From: an uncultured Bacilli bacterium
Lineage (GTDB): Bacteria; Bacillota_I; Bacilli_A; RF39; UBA660
NCBI GenBank assembly: GCA_947629035.1
Contig: CANRCE010000001.1
Span: 23,037-87,036 of the forward strand
Length of the DNA stretch: 64,000 nt
Direction of reading: 5' to 3'
Of this stretch, positions 8,546 to 18,136 are shown in pieces. The notes beneath the pieces were generated by a model, which was not told the DNA's origin, did no database searches, and saw nothing but the letters and a program-made list of their open reading frames with translations. The position numbers were made by a program, and so were the translations under genes. The stretch's first letter is position 1, and each line of letters opens with the position of its first letter.

Positions 8546-9277
8546 TTAGTCTTTTTTCTTTATAAATATATATCTATCTTTTCCACTTAAATCCTTGTCG
8601 ATAATAACTTCAATATTATCAAGATACTTATGGGCCATACGTTTAATATCCAAAGCCTGTTTATAACCAATTTCAAAAGCTATTAAAAAATTATCTTTTA
8701 AATATTTTTTAATGTTTTTTAATATTTCATCATAATAATATAAACCATTATTTTTAGCATATAAAGCAATATGGGGTTCATTGTTTTTAACAACATCCAT
8801 AATTTCTTCATCATATGAAAGATAAGGGGGATTAGAAATGATAATATCAAAAACGCCATTAATATTAGAAAACAAATCACTTTGAACAAAAGTTATATCT
8901 GTATAATTATTTTTAGCATTTTCCTTTGCGACTGTTAAAGCTTCAGGCGATATATCACTTGCAACTACCGTACAATCTAATTTTTTTTTAAGAGTTATCG
9001 CAATTGCTCCACTACCAGTACCAATATCTAAAATACTAATTTTTTCTTTAAACATTTTTTTAGCAAAATTTATTGTTTTTTCCACAAGCGTTTCTGTTTC
9101 AAAACGAGGAATTAAGACATTTTTATTAACTATTAATTTATTTCCATAAAAATCAACATTACCCACAATATATTGAATAGCTTCACCATTTTTTAACCTT
9201 AAGATTGCCTCTTCTAAATCATTATTATCAAGATTTTTTTTTAAATACTCAATGTCTTTTGGAGTTACTGTTGACAT
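8546..9277 (-). CDS. prmC: Release factor glutamine N5-methyltransferase
   Basis: 243 aa. SAM-binding DIGTGSGAIA and catalytic NPPY (ISNPPYL). Immediately downstream of prfA. Confidence 0.9.
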   Translation of the reverse strand: MSTVTPKDIEYLKKNLDNNDLEEAILRLKNGEAIQYIVGNVDFYGNKLIVNKNVLIPRFETETLVEKTINFAKKMFKEKISILDIGTGSGAIAITLKKKLDCTVVASDISPEALTVAKENAKNNYTDITFVQSDLFSNINGVFDIIISNPPYLSYDEEIMDVVKNNEPHIALYAKNNGLYYYDEILKNIKKYLKDNFLIAFEIGYKQALDIKRMAHKYLDNIEVIIDKDLSGKDRYIFIKKKD

Positions 9278-14211: not shown

Positions 14212-14257
14212 AATTAGTTAAAGTAATGTTATAATATTCTAGAAAGGTCGTGAAAAT

Positions 14258-15013
14258 ATGGGTAGTAACAAATCGGGTTTTAAAAATGAGACAGATATTA
14301 TTACTTGTCTATCAAATAAAAAATTCGAAGAACTAAATGATAATCTTAAAAGATTTATTCTATTTTTATTTCCACAAGTTAAAGAAAATGATTTAATAAA
14401 ATGTTATAACGGTAAAGCTAGACAAAAACCAGATATTGTAATTGATATAAAAGGGGTAATTAAAAGAATTAGTGTAAAAAAAGGAAATGGTAATTCGGTT
14501 CATCAAGAGGAAATCAGTTTATTTATGAATTTTTTAACAACTCTTGATATACCAGAAGATGTAAAAATAGAATTATTAAAATATCATTGGGGTGATGGTA
14601 CAACTGATGGTTCTGGGGAAAATAGAATTTCTAGTGCAGAATATAAAAAAGAACATAAAAATGAAATGCAGTTAATTAATAAAGAGTTAAATAAAAAATC
14701 AATATTAATAAAACTTATTACAAGAATATTATTTAAAGGTAGTAATGATGACGGTGATGAAGCTGATGCTATTTATTATGGAGATATAAATGAAGGGCAT
14801 TGGGCAGATAAAGATGAAATAATTAATTATATTATAAATAATAATTTTAATTTAAATTCTCTTCACTTTGGACCACTTACTTATCAGGCTTGGAATAGGT
14901 GCTTAAACTTTAATCCTAAAACAGAAAATAGAAGATATATTATGCAAGTTAAATGGGGCTCTATAGAAAAAGATTTAAAGAATATTGAAAAGGAGCGTAT
15001 TGAAAGTGAATAG
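14258..15013 (+). CDS. Candidate restriction endonuclease subunit 1 of a two-MTase Type II R-M system (hypothetical; inferred from context)
   Basis: 251 aa with no match to housekeeping families. Carries a possible PD-(D/E)xK-like stretch, KPDIVIDIKGVIKRISVKKG. It is convergent with and directly adjacent to two tandem m5C MTase genes. Its stop overlaps the start of the next ORF. Confidence 0.35.
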   Translation: MGSNKSGFKNETDIITCLSNKKFEELNDNLKRFILFLFPQVKENDLIKCYNGKARQKPDIVIDIKGVIKRISVKKGNGNSVHQEEISLFMNFLTTLDIPEDVKIELLKYHWGDGTTDGSGENRISSAEYKKEHKNEMQLINKELNKKSILIKLITRILFKGSNDDGDEADAIYYGDINEGHWADKDEIINYIINNNFNLNSLHFGPLTYQAWNRCLNFNPKTENRRYIMQVKWGSIEKDLKNIEKERIESE

Positions 15014-15833
15014 AGGTACACACTCTGGTGATTTAGCAGAAATAGAATTTGTTAAAAGATTCAATTCTCAAAAAAATAATCAAGATTTTGATTTCTACAT
15101 TAAAGATTTAGGTATTGAAGAATTAAATGATATTTATATGGTAAGAGTTACAACTAAACAATATTCAAAATTATCTCACCAAACAGTTATGACAAGAGCA
15201 GACACATACTTAATTAATTCAAAAGATCAATTGATAAACAAATTATTATATGAAAATGACTATTATTTAGATGAAAATATGTTAATTAATAATCATATAA
15301 ATTATTCATCAATAGATTACAGTGGAATATCTGTAAAAATGTCCGATTCAAGTAAATTTCAAATTTTAAAATTAACACCTGATAGTTTTAAAAATTTATT
15401 TGGCGAATATGAACTAGGAGCAGGTGCAAGTATATATTGCCTAAAGCAAAATGAAATAGAAAAAAATGATTCAGTATTTATTGGTTGGAAGACAACCAAA
15501 GATAAAGTTATTAATAGATATAAGAATGATATTCCTGATTTAATTAAGTTAAATGAAAATATTAGTGTAATTGAACAAATAAAAATATATAAAGAATTAA
15601 AAGAATTTTCTAATAAAAGAATTGCAGAAATAATAAATAATGATAGTCACTTAAAAGAAATAATATTTAATGGCTATCATATATATGAGCAACCATATTC
15701 GGCAAGTTACTTCTATAAAGGTGGTAAAATAAAAAAACTAAATTATATTCCATTTACTGTAACAACAGGATCTGGTCGCAGTAACGGAAATTTTACTATT
15801 GTTTTAAAACCTAAAAATGAAACTGTTGATTAG
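15006..15833 (+). CDS. Candidate restriction endonuclease subunit 2 (hypothetical; inferred from context)
   Basis: About 276-282 aa. Possible starts are TTG 14985, TTG 15000 and GTG 15006, with RBS AAAGGAG at 14988-14994. Overlaps the end of the upstream ORF, suggesting translational coupling. The stretch SGDLAEIEFVKRF might be a degenerate nuclease motif. No housekeeping homology recognised. Confidence 0.35.
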   Translation: MNRGTHSGDLAEIEFVKRFNSQKNNQDFDFYIKDLGIEELNDIYMVRVTTKQYSKLSHQTVMTRADTYLINSKDQLINKLLYENDYYLDENMLINNHINYSSIDYSGISVKMSDSSKFQILKLTPDSFKNLFGEYELGAGASIYCLKQNEIEKNDSVFIGWKTTKDKVINRYKNDIPDLIKLNENISVIEQIKIYKELKEFSNKRIAEIINNDSHLKEIIFNGYHIYEQPYSASYFYKGGKIKKLNYIPFTVTTGSGRSNGNFTIVLKPKNETVD

Positions 15834-15871
15834 TTTCATTTTTTTATTTAAAGTAAATATATAAATATAAA

Positions 15872-16834
15872 TTATTCAATCTCTTTGTTTAGTATATCAA
15901 CTAAATGTTTAGAAATATATTCTAAAATTGGTATAATAACACTATTACCAATTTGTTTATAGGCTTGAGCTCCAGTACCAATTTTATAATTATCAGGGTA
16001 TCCCATTAGCTTTAAGCATTCCTTTTCAGTTAGTTTTCTATTTAATTCTACTACTACTGGAACATTATTTCCTCCAGTACCCATTTTGGCAGTTAAACAG
16101 GGTGAAATACCATTTGATCTAAATTGACATCTTGAAGGTCTTATTTCATATGCTAAAGTATATTTAGAACTTTTTTCTTTTACTTTATTAATATGAGCTT
16201 GAATATTCTTTTTACATGTATCACTTATGATATAATCATCATAAGTATTTTTAGTATCTATAATATCATCATAAGTATATAATAATAATTTTTTTGGTGG
16301 AAAAATTTCATTTATATTTAGATTTATATTTAAATCTTTTCTAATTCCTACGCAATACCATCTTTCTCTACTTTGTGGTATTCCATAATCACTAGCATTT
16401 AAAACTTTATAAACGAAATCATATCCTAATTCATTCAACATATTTAAAATAACTTTTAAAGTTTCTCCTTTATCATGATTAGTTAATCCTTTAACATTTT
16501 CTAATATAAAAGCTTTTGGTTGTTTTTCTCTAAGTATTCTTGCAACTTCAAAAAACATTATTCCTCTTGTATCTTCAAAACCTAATCTTTTTCCAGCTAT
16601 TGAAAATGATTGACAAGGAAATCCACCACATAAGATATCAAAATCAGGAATATCTTTAGCTGCGATTTTGGTAATATCACCACTAGGATGTTGCCCAAAA
16701 TTATTTTCATAAACTTTACAAACAGCTTCATCTATGTCAGAACTAAAAACGCATTTGCATTTTTGTTTTTCTAAAGCTATTCTAAATCCACCAAGTCCAC
16801 AAAATAAATCAATGAATTTTAAATTTTTACTCAT
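15872..16834 (-). CDS. DNA (cytosine-5)-methyltransferase, second of a tandem pair
   Basis: 320 aa. Motif I FIDLFCGLGGF, motif IV GGFPCQSFSIAGKRLGFEDTRG, motif VI ENVKGL. Overlaps the upstream MTase stop by 8 nt. Confidence 0.9.
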   Translation of the reverse strand: MSKNLKFIDLFCGLGGFRIALEKQKCKCVFSSDIDEAVCKVYENNFGQHPSGDITKIAAKDIPDFDILCGGFPCQSFSIAGKRLGFEDTRGIMFFEVARILREKQPKAFILENVKGLTNHDKGETLKVILNMLNELGYDFVYKVLNASDYGIPQSRERWYCVGIRKDLNINLNINEIFPPKKLLLYTYDDIIDTKNTYDDYIISDTCKKNIQAHINKVKEKSSKYTLAYEIRPSRCQFRSNGISPCLTAKMGTGGNNVPVVVELNRKLTEKECLKLMGYPDNYKIGTGAQAYKQIGNSVIIPILEYISKHLVDILNKEIE

Positions 16835-17909
16835 CTATAAATTCCATTAATTTATTTATTATTTCAGTAATAACAGGTGGACTAACTGCATTACCAGATT
16901 GTTTATATAATTGAGTATCGCTCATTTTATTTTTTTGAATATTATCAGTAAATTTACTATCAAATCCTTGAATTCTTAATGTCTCTAATGGAGTTAATTT
17001 TCTTATATAATACTCATCTTTTTCTTTAAATATAATTTTAGGGCTATCTGATCTAGCTAAAAGTGTTGGAGATATTCCATAAATAGAATAAACTCTTCTT
17101 TGCCTATCTAAATCATTGTGAACATCTCTTGGAAGAGTAAATTCTTTTATTATTTTATTATTAGTTTTTTTAGAAAGTTCATTTTTATTTAAATTATCAA
17201 TAAATTTTCTAACTTTATCAGAATTTAAGTAATATTTTTTAGCTACATTTATTTCTAATATATTTTTTATATATGTCTTTTTATTGTGCATTTCAATTAA
17301 ATTGAAAAAATTCATTGTTTTTAATTTATTTTCATTGGCCCAATTCTTAATAGAAGTTACCATTGAATTTCTTTTATCAGGAACAAATTTTTCAACTTCA
17401 TGATTTAATATACCAACTATATATGTTCTTTCTCGACTTTGGGGAACACCAGCTTCGTTTGAATTAATTATTGTAATATCAAAAGTGTAACCGCAATCCG
17501 AAATATTCTTAAGAATAGTTTTTATTGTATTTCCATTATCATGGCTTATTAAATTTTTTACATTTTCTAAAAATAAATATTTTGGTTTTTTAGTTTTTAT
17601 AATTCTAATAACATCAAAAAATAATGTTCCTCTGATGTCTTTAAAACCTTGCTGCTTACCTGCAACAGAAAATGATTGACAAGGAAATCCACCACATAAT
17701 AAATCATGATCAGGAATATCGTTTTCGTTTATCTTTTTTATGTCTTTGTGCATATTGTTAATTGGAAAATTATAGCTAAAAGTCATTGTTGCATATTTAT
17801 CAATTTCTGATGCAAAAACAAGTTCATAATCCATTTTTGATTTTTTAAATCCTTGTTCAAAGCCACCAATTCCTGAAAACAAAGAAACAACTCTAAACTT
17901 TTTTTTCAT
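16827..17909 (-). CDS. DNA (cytosine-5)-methyltransferase, first of a tandem pair
   Basis: Motif I VVSLFSGIGGF, motif IV GGFPCQSFSVAGKQQGFKDIRG, motif VI ENVKNL. The track ORF extends to 17966, but ATG 17909 (MKKKFRVVSLF) has RBS AAAGGAG 8 nt upstream and is the likely start. Confidence 0.9.
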   Translation of the reverse strand: MKKKFRVVSLFSGIGGFEQGFKKSKMDYELVFASEIDKYATMTFSYNFPINNMHKDIKKINENDIPDHDLLCGGFPCQSFSVAGKQQGFKDIRGTLFFDVIRIIKTKKPKYLFLENVKNLISHDNGNTIKTILKNISDCGYTFDITIINSNEAGVPQSRERTYIVGILNHEVEKFVPDKRNSMVTSIKNWANENKLKTMNFFNLIEMHNKKTYIKNILEINVAKKYYLNSDKVRKFIDNLNKNELSKKTNNKIIKEFTLPRDVHNDLDRQRRVYSIYGISPTLLARSDSPKIIFKEKDEYYIRKLTPLETLRIQGFDSKFTDNIQKNKMSDTQLYKQSGNAVSPPVITEIINKLMEFIDE

Positions 17910-18136
17910 GGCTTTTCTCCTTTCTAAAAAAATATAATATCTTTTTTCTAATAAATATTTTATCATATATAATTTTAAAAATCCGCAATTTTAACAAAAA
18001 AACAAAAAAAATATCTTTATTATTATAATTATGATAAATTAAAACAAAATTAAAAGGACTGTTCCCCATTTTAATTAGGTTACAATCCTTAAATAATTAA
18101 ACTGTCCAACTTTTTGGTTTCAGTCCAAATGAAATC

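What the first reader, a model, noticed from the sequence alone, without database searches (positions are those of the whole stretch)
14212..17990. R-M island: two tandem m5C MTases plus two overlapping small ORFs, candidate heterodimeric REase (Bpu10I/BbvCI-like)
Two translationally coupled cytosine-5 MTases, both with full motif sets, face two co-oriented, overlapping ORFs of 251 aa and about 276 aa with no housekeeping homology. Systems with two separate m5C MTases typically recognise asymmetric sites, one MTase per strand. Bpu10I and BbvCI additionally have two different REase subunits of similar size forming a heterodimer. The island sits between tex and a transporter with no mobility genes. 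If the two ORFs are a heterodimeric nuclease they would be engineering-relevant as a nicking-enzyme source. If they are not nucleases, this would be an unknown two-gene module associated with the MTases.
Basis: partly seen in the sequence, partly recalled or inferred. Interest (0 to 1): 0.65.

Follow-up and report, generated by a model that had tools for sequence, protein, structure and literature searches.

The report
Split two-subunit restriction enzyme, probably CCGC
This is a real restriction-modification island in which two different HinP1I/MspI-type nucleases (one per DNA strand) are paired with two cytosine-5 methylases, most likely acting on the asymmetric 4-bp site CCGC like the known enzyme AciI; it is a naturally split version of a known enzyme kind, not a BbvCI/Bpu10I relative.

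Summary
Window 14258-17909 carries two co-oriented, 8-nt-overlapping ORFs (A 251 aa, B 275 aa). They converge on two 8-nt-overlapping m5C methyltransferase genes (M1 360 aa, M2 320 aa), between tex and a DcuC-type transporter.

- **Linkage:** A sits directly upstream of B, with two m5C MTases nearby, in most of 56 loci from bacteria and archaea.
- **Fusions:** relatives fuse A-B into one ~500 aa chain, or M1-M2 into one ~685 aa chain.
- **Prior model:** PADLOC's 527-position "Type II REase" model covers A and B end to end.

The predicted site is CCGC/GCGG (AciI specificity).
- The window has no CCGC outside the island (about 10 expected).
- Host loci show O/E 0.59, against 1.09 in controls.
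- A GCGG sits at a fixed position in the M1-M2 promoter in at least 13 loci.

Verdict: a Type IIT system, a split-subunit variant of a known kind. Biochemistry is untested.

The parts
14227..14235 (+). Possible extended -10 element (TGtTATAAT) of the A-B (restriction) operon, in the 46-nt gap after tex
   Evidence: Read directly from the sequence. The promoter scan gives no more hits than shuffled sequence, so this is weak.
14258..15013 (+). ORF-A: restriction subunit 1, 251 aa, HinP1I/MspI-fold nuclease. Invariant E11, D59, S72-x-K74, plus S80/H82/E84 and R226/Q230/K232/W233.
15006..15833 (+). ORF-B: restriction subunit 2, 275 aa from GTG 15006, translationally coupled to A. A more diverged HinP1I/MspI-fold nuclease. 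Invariant E12, D66, S109-x-K111, and TTGSGR at 253-258.
15872..16834 (-). M2: m5C DNA methyltransferase, 320 aa. Collinear with M.HhaI over its full length, but with a diverged target-recognition region.
   Evidence: M.HhaI E 9.6e-81, residues 4-316 against 11-323.
16827..17909 (-). M1: m5C DNA methyltransferase, 360 aa from ATG 17909. Its TRD differs from M2, and its stop overlaps the M2 start by 8 nt.
17957..17986 (-). Putative M1-M2 promoter. GCGG (= CCGC on the + strand, 17983-17986) lies in the -35 region, 20 nt upstream of TAAAAT (17962-17957), with TG at 17965-17964. The candidate recognition site sits in the system's own promoter.
   Evidence: The arrangement GCGG-ATTTTT-N9-TATG-N-TANAAT recurs at fixed spacing in 13 loci.
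17491..17494 (+). The only other CCGC in the 64-kb window, inside the M1 gene

Best explanation
This is a Type IIT restriction-modification system.

**Nuclease subunits.** ORF-A and ORF-B are two different single-active-site nucleases of the HinP1I/MspI structural type. Enzymes of that type bind a short site as monomers and cut one strand per binding event. They cut both strands of a palindrome only by rebinding in the opposite orientation. On an asymmetric site that is impossible, so two different subunits are needed, one for each strand. They are encoded as a translationally coupled pair here and as one fused chain in many relatives. Tethering or heterodimerisation would keep the second cutter at the nicked site; this step is inferred.

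**Methyltransferases.** M1 and M2 each methylate the cytosine of one strand. This is inferred from the two distinct TRDs and from the known logic of Type IIT systems.

**Predicted site.** The most likely site is 5'-CCGC-3'/5'-GCGG-3', the specificity of AciI (C^CGC / G^CGG). That site is formally a hybrid of the MspI (C^CGG) and HinP1I (G^CGC) sites, with the same cut geometry.

**Regulation.** A GCGG in the -35 region of the M1-M2 promoter probably makes methylase expression sensitive to the system's own methylation or binding, as in CfrBI. This replaces the C protein found in some relatives.

**What is shown and what is inferred**
- Shown: gene anatomy, fold, conserved catalytic residues, obligate A-B-M-M linkage and fusions, CCGC avoidance, and the conserved promoter GCGG.
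- Inferred: cleavage activity, strand assignment, heterodimer formation, the exact site, and the regulatory effect.
For: **Fold**

**Catalytic residues**
- Invariant across 60 A homologues: E11, D59, S72-x-K74.
- Invariant across 63 B homologues: E12, D66, S109-x-K111.

**One system, not two**
- In most of 56 genome loci spanning Firmicutes, Tenericutes, Campylobacterota, Bacteroidota, CPR and archaea, A lies directly upstream of B, with two m5C MTases nearby.
- A-B are fused in 30 of 147 family representatives; 13 more are A-A'-B.
- M1-M2 are fused in L002, L028 and L058.
- PADLOC REase_II (527 positions) is covered by A at 7-259 and B at 264-527.

**Site**
- The window has 0 CCGC outside the island, against 10.3 expected (order-2 Markov) or 24.7 (order-1).
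- 56 host loci pooled: 228 observed against 386 expected (0.59, z = -8). Depletion is uniform over all flanking bases, 0.36-0.78.
- 79 control loci with related m5C MTases but no A/B: O/E 1.09.
- CCGC is the top asymmetric 4-mer in an unbiased system-versus-control comparison (z = -9.4).
- GCGG is conserved at fixed spacing in the M1-M2 promoter in 13 loci, where it is often the only such site in several kb.

**Literature**
- HinP1I and MspI are monomers with one catalytic site (PMC7026639).
- Type IIT enzymes have two catalytic sites and two MTases, separate or fused. AciI is a single chain with two catalytic domains plus a composite M1~M2 and a C protein (PMC4081073).
- AciI sites are m5C-methylated on both strands (PMC8112702).
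- Promoter-site methylation control is documented in CfrBI (bioRxiv 10.64898/2025.12.04.692298).
Against: - There is no biochemical evidence. No sequence of R.AciI, BspACI or SsiI was available, so homology to a characterised CCGC enzyme is untested.
- None of the 150 listed family representatives has a high-G+C (actinobacterial) amino-acid composition. The Arthrobacter enzyme may therefore be unrelated.
- CCGC depletion is heterogeneous. It is absent in some loci (L015, L047, L048, L054, L002) and undetectable in the closest relatives (18 against 19.3, low power).
- The controls are more GC-rich than the hosts (41% against 29.5%).
- The M2 TRD is collinear with M.HhaI but not conserved, so it says little about the site.
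- The conserved promoter block is wider than 4 bp (AAAATnGCGGATTTTT) and could be an operator for something else.
- A and B show no detectable sequence similarity to each other, even by profile comparison.
- Physical A-B association is inferred only from fusions and translational coupling.
Confidence: 0.72

Rival explanations
1. Same architecture (two-subunit Type IIT enzyme plus two m5C MTases), but the recognition site is not CCGC. It would be another asymmetric site, possibly longer or containing only part of CCGC.
For: - The site prediction rests on indirect statistics.
- Several host loci show no CCGC depletion.
- The M2 TRD differs from M.HhaI.
- The conserved promoter block extends beyond GCGG.
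- No homologue could be tied to a characterised enzyme.
Against: - CCGC is the only asymmetric 4-mer strongly and specifically depleted in hosts relative to controls.
- Depletion is even across all eight 5-mer extensions, which argues for a 4-bp site.
- There are 0 sites in about 60 kb of the window outside the island.
- GCGG is the invariant core of the promoter block.
Confidence: 0.18
2. These are two independent Type IIP systems lying side by side. Each monomeric nuclease (A, B) would be paired with its own MTase and a different palindromic site, for example GCGC-like and CCGG-like.
For: - Both folds are those of monomeric Type IIP enzymes.
- M2 resembles M.HhaI, which acts on GCGC.
- A and B share no detectable sequence similarity.
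Against: - A, B and both MTases co-occur in most of the 56 loci, in the same order.
- A-B gene fusions occur in 43 representatives, and M-M fusions also occur.
- A and B overlap by 8 nt and are translationally coupled.
- GCGC (16 against 9.5) and CCGG (10 against 15.4) are not avoided in the window.
- One PADLOC REase model spans both proteins.
Confidence: 0.05
3. The system is a Bpu10I/BbvCI-type heterodimer recognising CCTNAGC or a similar 7-bp site.
For: - Gene layout and subunit sizes resemble BbvCI and Bpu10I.
- The window strongly avoids CTNAG: CTAAG/CTTAG 14 against 79.5, CTCAG/CTGAG 2 against 19.6.
Against: - There is no Pfam hit, RE_Bpu10I included.
- There is no PDB sequence or profile hit, although BbvCI structures have been published.
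- CTNAG avoidance is peculiar to this genome and is not shared by other hosts of the system (O/E 0.69-0.85). It concerns the whole 5-mer, which points to a DdeI-like system elsewhere.
Confidence: 0.02
4. Only one of the two proteins is an active nuclease. The other would be a degenerate paralogue acting as a DNA-recognition or effector subunit, so the enzyme is a nickase or needs two sites.
For: - Relatives with A-A'-B architecture carry a middle A' domain that has lost the catalytic Lys (SVV/SVF) or the Asp. Domain inactivation therefore does occur in this family.
- B is structurally more diverged, with a 42-residue insert between D66 and S109.
Against: - In the window and across both alignments, the full E/D/S-x-K set is invariant in both A and B.
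- Two MTases protecting both strands imply that both strands are attacked.
Confidence: 0.05

Closest known systems
AciI R-M system (Arthrobacter citreus; CCGC (-3/-1); R.AciI + M1~M2.AciI + C.AciI)
   Same: - It is Type IIT: two different catalytic sites for one asymmetric 4-bp site.
- It has two m5C MTase activities, one per strand (PMC4081073, PMC8112702).
- The predicted site here is the same, CCGC.
- Relatives of the window system show the AciI layout: single-chain A-B, fused M1~M2, and in L017 an HTH C-like gene.
   Different: - In the window the nuclease is split into two polypeptides and the MTases are separate.
- No C protein is present. A GCGG in the MTase promoter may take its place.
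- Sequence homology to R.AciI could not be tested. No actinobacterial-looking member was found.
HinP1I (G^CGC) and MspI (C^CGG), monomeric Type IIP restriction endonucleases
   Same: - They are the best and essentially only strong structural matches for both A and B.
- Size is similar (241-262 aa).
- Both have a variant PD-(D/E)xK site in which the acidic residue before Lys is replaced. Here the motif is S-x-K; from memory, HinP1I has Q-x-K and MspI has N-x-K.
   Different: - No sequence-level similarity was detectable (Pfam, PDB phmmer and profile searches all negative).
- HinP1I and MspI work alone on palindromes with one MTase. Here two different paralogue-like subunits are locked together with two MTases, implying an asymmetric site.
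BbvCI / Bpu10I heterodimeric Type IIT endonucleases
   Same: - Two similar-sized subunits, each with one catalytic site.
- Two separate m5C MTases.
- Potential to yield strand-specific nickases (PMC6326814, PMC4081073).
   Different: - The structural class differs: BbvCI is SgrAI/NgoMIV-like and forms a true dimer.
- There is no sequence or fold match here.
- BbvCI and Bpu10I have a 7-bp site; a 4-bp site is predicted here.
PADLOC-DB model PDLC03402 'REase_II'
   Same: A and B together cover the 527-position profile end to end. The family is therefore already catalogued as a single-chain Type II restriction enzyme.
   Different: The model represents the fused form. The library gives no specificity or enzyme name.
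CfrBI R-M system (regulation)
   Same: A single recognition site in the promoter region lets methylation status set expression (bioRxiv 10.64898/2025.12.04.692298; review PMC3874152).
   Different: - CfrBI has divergent M and R genes sharing one promoter region.
- Here the operons are convergent, and the site lies only in the M1-M2 promoter.
- The regulatory effect here is untested.

Membership tests
Type IIT restriction-modification system | Two different nuclease catalytic sites (subunits or domains) | tested here: met
   A and B are distinct proteins. Each has an invariant E/D/S-x-K set and a restriction-nuclease fold.
Type IIT restriction-modification system | Two MTase activities, one per strand (separate or fused) | tested here: met
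   There are two PF00145 MTases with different TRDs. They are fused in L002, L028 and L058. Strand assignment was not tested.
Type IIT restriction-modification system | Asymmetric recognition sequence cleaved within or next to the site | tested here: inconclusive
   Indirect evidence only: specific avoidance of the asymmetric word CCGC/GCGG in hosts and GCGG in the system's own promoter. No cleavage data.
Type IIT restriction-modification system | The two subunits act together on one site | tested here: inconclusive
   Support comes from obligate adjacency, translational coupling and A-B fusions. Physical interaction is not testable with these tools.
Bpu10I/BbvCI family | Sequence membership (Pfam RE_Bpu10I; similarity to BbvCI R1/R2) | tested here: not met
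   No Pfam family at E <= 1. No PDB chain at E <= 10 by phmmer or profile, although BbvCI structures have been published.
Bpu10I/BbvCI family | BbvCI-like (SgrAI/NgoMIV-class) fold | tested here: not met
HinP1I/MspI structural family of restriction nucleases | Two-sheet fold superposable on HinP1I/MspI over most of the chain | tested here: met
HinP1I/MspI structural family of restriction nucleases | Sequence membership in the Pfam HinP1I or MspI families | tested here: not met
   No Pfam hit at E <= 1 for A or B.
HinP1I/MspI structural family of restriction nucleases | Acts as a monomer with one catalytic site, one strand per binding event | not testable with these tools
   One catalytic motif per protein is seen. 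Oligomeric state and kinetics need experiment.
AciI-like (CCGC) systems | Recognition of CCGC/GCGG with m5C on both strands | tested here: inconclusive
   Host avoidance O/E 0.59 against 1.09 in controls. No site in the window outside the island. Promoter GCGG conserved. No methylome or cleavage data.
AciI-like (CCGC) systems | Single-chain REase with two catalytic domains, composite M1~M2, and a C protein (PMC4081073) | tested here: not met
   In the window the R and M genes are split and there is no C gene. The fused forms and a C-like HTH exist in relatives.
AciI-like (CCGC) systems | Sequence homology to R.AciI / M.AciI | not testable with these tools
The PADLOC REase_II model covers A+B, but its source enzyme is not named.

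The most novel reading that the evidence does not exclude
A and B are two autonomous, naturally strand-specific 4-bp nicking endonucleases: a top-strand and a bottom-strand 'CCGC nickase'. Together they make a restriction enzyme without forming a classical dimer. The second cut is secured only by co-expression or tethering. The system also senses its own establishment through a methylatable CCGC in the -35 region of the methylase promoter. Each subunit expressed alone would then be a ready-made frequent-cutting nickase needing no engineering.
Probability: 0.3. Interest if true: 0.6.

Novelty: new variant of a known kind. Interest (0 to 1): 0.45.

Why it matters
**Annotation.** The work assigns a function, a fold and a predicted specificity to two protein families that NCBI, Pfam and NCBIfam leave as 'hypothetical'. 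The B family has about 200 clusters at 50% identity, spread across bacteria and archaea.

**Mechanism.** It shows how monomer-type restriction enzymes (HinP1I/MspI) can be recruited to an asymmetric site: by pairing two diverged copies, either split or fused.

**Practical use.** A naturally split enzyme offers both strand-specific nickases for a 4-bp site without mutagenesis. The two MTases would give strand-specific CpG-context m5C methylation.

**Regulation.** The conserved recognition site in the methylase promoter is a testable, C-protein-free regulatory switch.

**Limit.** The overall kind (Type IIT, probably AciI-like) is already known, and PADLOC already models the fused form. This extends existing knowledge rather than opening a new category.

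Tried and rejected
- **Frameshifted single gene.** I considered whether A and B are one gene broken by a frameshift. Rejected for the window: there is a clean SD plus GTG start, an 8-nt overlap, no homopolymer at the junction, and about 60 representative clusters have a standalone B. True fusions do exist elsewhere.
- **Direct and profile sequence searches.** Pfam, NCBIfam, PDB phmmer and profile searches, and PHROGs found nothing for A or B. Only PADLOC hit.
- **A-versus-B paralogy.** BLASTP and hhalign found no signal. Their relationship is visible only through the shared fold.
- **Reading the site from the M2 TRD.** Alignment to M.HhaI shows a collinear but unconserved TRD, so this was uninformative.
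- **Looking for an Arthrobacter or AciI homologue.** I tried amino-acid composition of representatives and cluster names. None was found; every name is 'hypothetical protein'.
- **afdb50 fold search.** The library was not available.
- **HinP1I papers.** PMC1074309 and PMC1363774 are not held. The HinP1I and MspI catalytic motifs are therefore quoted from memory.
- **CTNAG (DdeI/Bpu10I core) as the target.** Rejected, because the avoidance is specific to this genome and not shared by other hosts of the system.
- **GATC as the target.** Rejected. GATC is palindromic and is also avoided in controls (O/E 0.70).
- **A second m5C MTase or A/B copy elsewhere in the window.** None was found.


Full report
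**1. Observation**

The ORF table and the sequence confirm the layout.
- ORF-A is 14258-15013 (+), 251 aa.
- ORF-B runs on the same strand. The mechanical ORF starts at TTG 14985. AAGGAG at 14990-14995 and a GTG at 15006 give a 275-aa protein that begins MNRGT, like every homologue. It overlaps the stop of A by 8 nt (GTGAATAG).
- Two genes converge on them. M2 is 15872-16834 (320 aa). M1 is 16827-17909 (360 aa from the SD-preceded ATG; the listed 379-aa form starts further upstream). M1 and M2 overlap by 8 nt.
- Both are complete cytosine-5 MTases: PF00145 at E 2.5e-97 and 7.5e-89, and TIGR00675. They are 34% identical to each other.
- Flanking genes are DinB, Tex and LysRS and a DcuC/YfcC-type transporter.
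- GC is about 25% throughout with no break. No mobility gene is present.

**2. What A and B are**

Sequence methods are nearly blind to these proteins.
- There is no Pfam or NCBIfam family at E <= 1.
- There is no PDB chain by phmmer or by family profiles, and nothing meaningful in PHROGs.
- A and B are not detectably similar to each other.

Each protein has a compact family of unnamed proteins: 128 and 247 hits.
- The A alignment shows invariant E11, K57, D59, S72, K74, S80, H82, E84 and R226/Q230/K232/W233.
- The B alignment shows invariant E12, R64, D66, S109, K111, Q119, K122 and a C-terminal TTGSGR.
- Both therefore carry the pattern E...(K/R)xD...S-x-K. This is a PD-(D/E)xK variant in which the acidic residue before Lys is replaced.

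AlphaFold2 models built from these alignments are confident: pLDDT 93.0 and 93.8, pTM 0.89 and 0.88.
- Foldseek independently returns only HinP1I and MspI for B.

PADLOC's model PDLC03402 'REase_II' has 527 positions. A matches positions 7-259 (E 5.5e-28) and B matches 264-527 (E 2.8e-32). The pair is therefore a split form of a single-chain Type II restriction enzyme that is already catalogued.

**3. One system or two**

A genome scan with the B profile returned 56 loci. They come from Firmicutes, Tenericutes, Campylobacterota, Bacteroidota, Melainabacteria, CPR bacteria, and methanogen, Nano- and Woesearchaeota MAGs. This is the patchy distribution typical of R-M systems.
- In most loci, A lies immediately upstream of B, and two m5C MTases follow on the opposite strand.
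- In L002, L028 and L058 the two MTases are one ~685-aa protein with two PF00145 domains.
- In about ten loci, A and B form one ORF.

An exhaustive HMM search found 206 family representatives. Of the 147 examined:
- about 60 are standalone B;
- 30 are A-B fusions of about 500 aa;
- 13 are A-A'-B proteins of about 780 aa.

In the A-A'-B proteins the middle copy has usually lost the catalytic Lys. Fusion of both the nuclease halves and the MTase halves is strong 'Rosetta stone' evidence that all four activities serve one site. All named members are 'hypothetical protein'.

**4. Why two subunits**

HinP1I, MspI and HhaI are monomers with a single catalytic site. They cut a palindrome one strand at a time by rebinding in the opposite orientation (PMC7026639, PMC4081073). 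An asymmetric site cannot be rebound in reverse by the same protein. A HinP1I-type enzyme can restrict such a site only if a second, differently specific copy handles the other strand. That is exactly the anatomy here, and it explains the two MTases.

The 2014 Type II review defines this as Type IIT. It notes that such enzymes have two MTases, separate or fused. It lists AciI among the single-chain enzymes with two catalytic domains, accompanied by a composite M1~M2 MTase and a C protein (PMC4081073).

**5. Which site**

AciI cuts C^CGC / G^CGG. That site is a hybrid of MspI's C^CGG and HinP1I's G^CGC, with the same 5'-CG overhang. It was therefore the obvious candidate, and I tested it by word statistics.

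*Window.*
- The window holds only two CCGC/GCGG sites. Both are inside the island: 17491 in M1 and 17983 in the M1 promoter.
- None lies in the other ~60 kb, where 10.3 (order-2 Markov) or 24.7 (order-1) are expected.
- GCGC (16 against 9.5) and CCGG (10 against 15.4) are not avoided.

*Host loci.*
- Pooled over the 56 host loci (540 kb), CCGC is 228 against 386 expected (O/E 0.59, z = -8).
- Words of the same composition are not depleted: CGCC 1.35 and CCCG 0.91.
- All eight 5-mer extensions are depleted alike (0.36-0.78), which argues for a 4-bp site.
- Campylobacterota loci with fused A-B have 3 sites against about 47 expected.

*Controls.*
- As a control I fetched 80 metagenome loci through conserved m5C MTase motifs.
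- 79 of them lack A/B, and there CCGC has O/E 1.09, or 1.10 in the low-GC subset.
- In an unbiased comparison of all 136 4-mers between hosts and controls, CCGC ranks second (z = -9.4). Only GATC ranks higher; it is palindromic and is also avoided in controls. CCGC is first among asymmetric words.

*Promoter.*
- The one intergenic CCGC of the window lies in the M1-M2 promoter. GCGG sits 20 nt upstream of a TG-N-TAAAAT extended -10 element.
- The same arrangement, GCGG-ATTTTT-N9-TATG-N-TANAAT, is found ungapped in L003-L006, L008, L010, L013-L015, L018, L021 and L025. L002 has a GCGG upstream of M1 but lacks the T-run.
- In several of these loci it is the only CCGC in 7-12 kb.
- A system keeping one copy of a word that its host otherwise purges, at a fixed promoter position, is the signature of self-recognition. 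The CfrBI system is the documented precedent.
- Loci without this element tend to have a small regulator gene upstream of M1 instead. L017 has a Cro/C1-type HTH.

*Caveats.*
- Depletion is heterogeneous and absent in some loci.
- The controls are more GC-rich than the hosts.
- The M2 TRD is collinear with M.HhaI but unconserved.
- I could not compare with the R.AciI sequence, and no actinobacterial-looking member was seen.

**6.

It is right that this is an R-M island with a two-subunit nuclease for an asymmetric site. It is also right that the island could yield nicking enzymes. It is wrong about the family. There is no sequence or fold relation to Bpu10I or BbvCI, and the likely site is 4 bp.

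The window does avoid CTNAG strongly: CTAAG/CTTAG 14 against 79.5 and CTCAG/CTGAG 2 against 19.6. Other hosts of the system do not share this. No further m5C MTase is in the window. The avoidance probably reflects a DdeI-like system elsewhere in this genome.

**7. Verdict**

This is a Type IIT R-M system whose nuclease is a naturally split pair of HinP1I/MspI-fold subunits.

| Claim | Confidence |
|---|---|
| Architecture and two-subunit nuclease | about 0.7-0.8 |
| CCGC as the recognition site | about 0.55-0.6 |
| Promoter autoregulation | about 0.4 |

Known kinds cover it: Type IIT, AciI-like, and the PADLOC REase_II model. It is therefore a new variant rather than a new category. It has moderate interest for enzyme engineering and for understanding how monomeric restriction enzymes adapt to asymmetric sites.

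Noticed in passing
window, whole 64 kb (e.g. CTAAG at 2941, 4440, 11620, 16530...; CTCAG 9513; CTGAG 13736): CTNAG is strongly avoided. CTAAG/CTTAG is 14 against 79.5 expected and CTCAG/CTGAG is 2 against 19.6. GATC is also avoided (O/E 0.46). This suggests DdeI-like and GATC-specific R-M pressure in this genome. No matching MTase lies in the window, and the avoidance is not shared by other hosts of the A/B system.
   Followed up: partly
P0276, P0287, P0299, P0313, P0316 and other ~780-aa representatives: 13 family representatives are triple fusions, A-A'-B. The first A keeps D...S-x-K. The middle A' has usually lost the catalytic Lys (SVV/SVF/TVF) or the Asp. It looks like a degenerate nuclease copy reused as an extra DNA-binding or effector domain, in the manner of the Sau3AI C-terminal half.
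   Followed up: partly
L039 5272-6756, L044 5272-6756 (Campylobacteraceae / Sulfurovum MAGs): The fused A-B gene sits among housekeeping genes with no m5C MTase within 6 kb. Yet these contigs contain no CCGC at all (0 against 5.5 and 0 against 10.1 expected). The MTases must be elsewhere; in L040 they lie about 4.4 kb away. The alternative is an orphan nuclease in a genome heavily purged of the site.
   Followed up: partly
L017 ~8900-9150 (upstream of M1); L023, L026, L027 upstream of M1: Loci that lack the promoter GCGG carry a small regulator-like ORF upstream of M1 instead. In L017 it is a Cro/C1-type HTH (PF13443, E 5e-21). In L023, L026 and L027 it is a short ORF that looks AbrB/SpoVT-like by eye, but a 49-aa fragment gave no Pfam hit. 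These appear to be alternative control solutions within one family.
   Followed up: partly
L002 1277-7386: The distant homologue lies in a defence island next to an AlwI-type restriction enzyme with D12 and N6_N4 MTases, a DpnI_C/T5orf172 protein and a GIY-YIG protein.
   Followed up: no
L028 2289-6209; L057 3145-7742; L059 1333-4709: Gene order varies. In L028 a fused M-M and B share one strand and A is on the opposite strand. L057 has three m5C MTase genes around a fused A-B. In L059 an MTase is followed on the same strand by an 807-codon stop-to-stop frame that hits both A and B.
   Followed up: no
window 14212-14257 and 15834-15871: The intergenic gaps are very short: 46 nt after tex, and 38 nt between the convergent B and M2 stops. 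No terminator-like hairpin was found in the island. Convergent transcription of the R and M operons may therefore collide.
   Followed up: no
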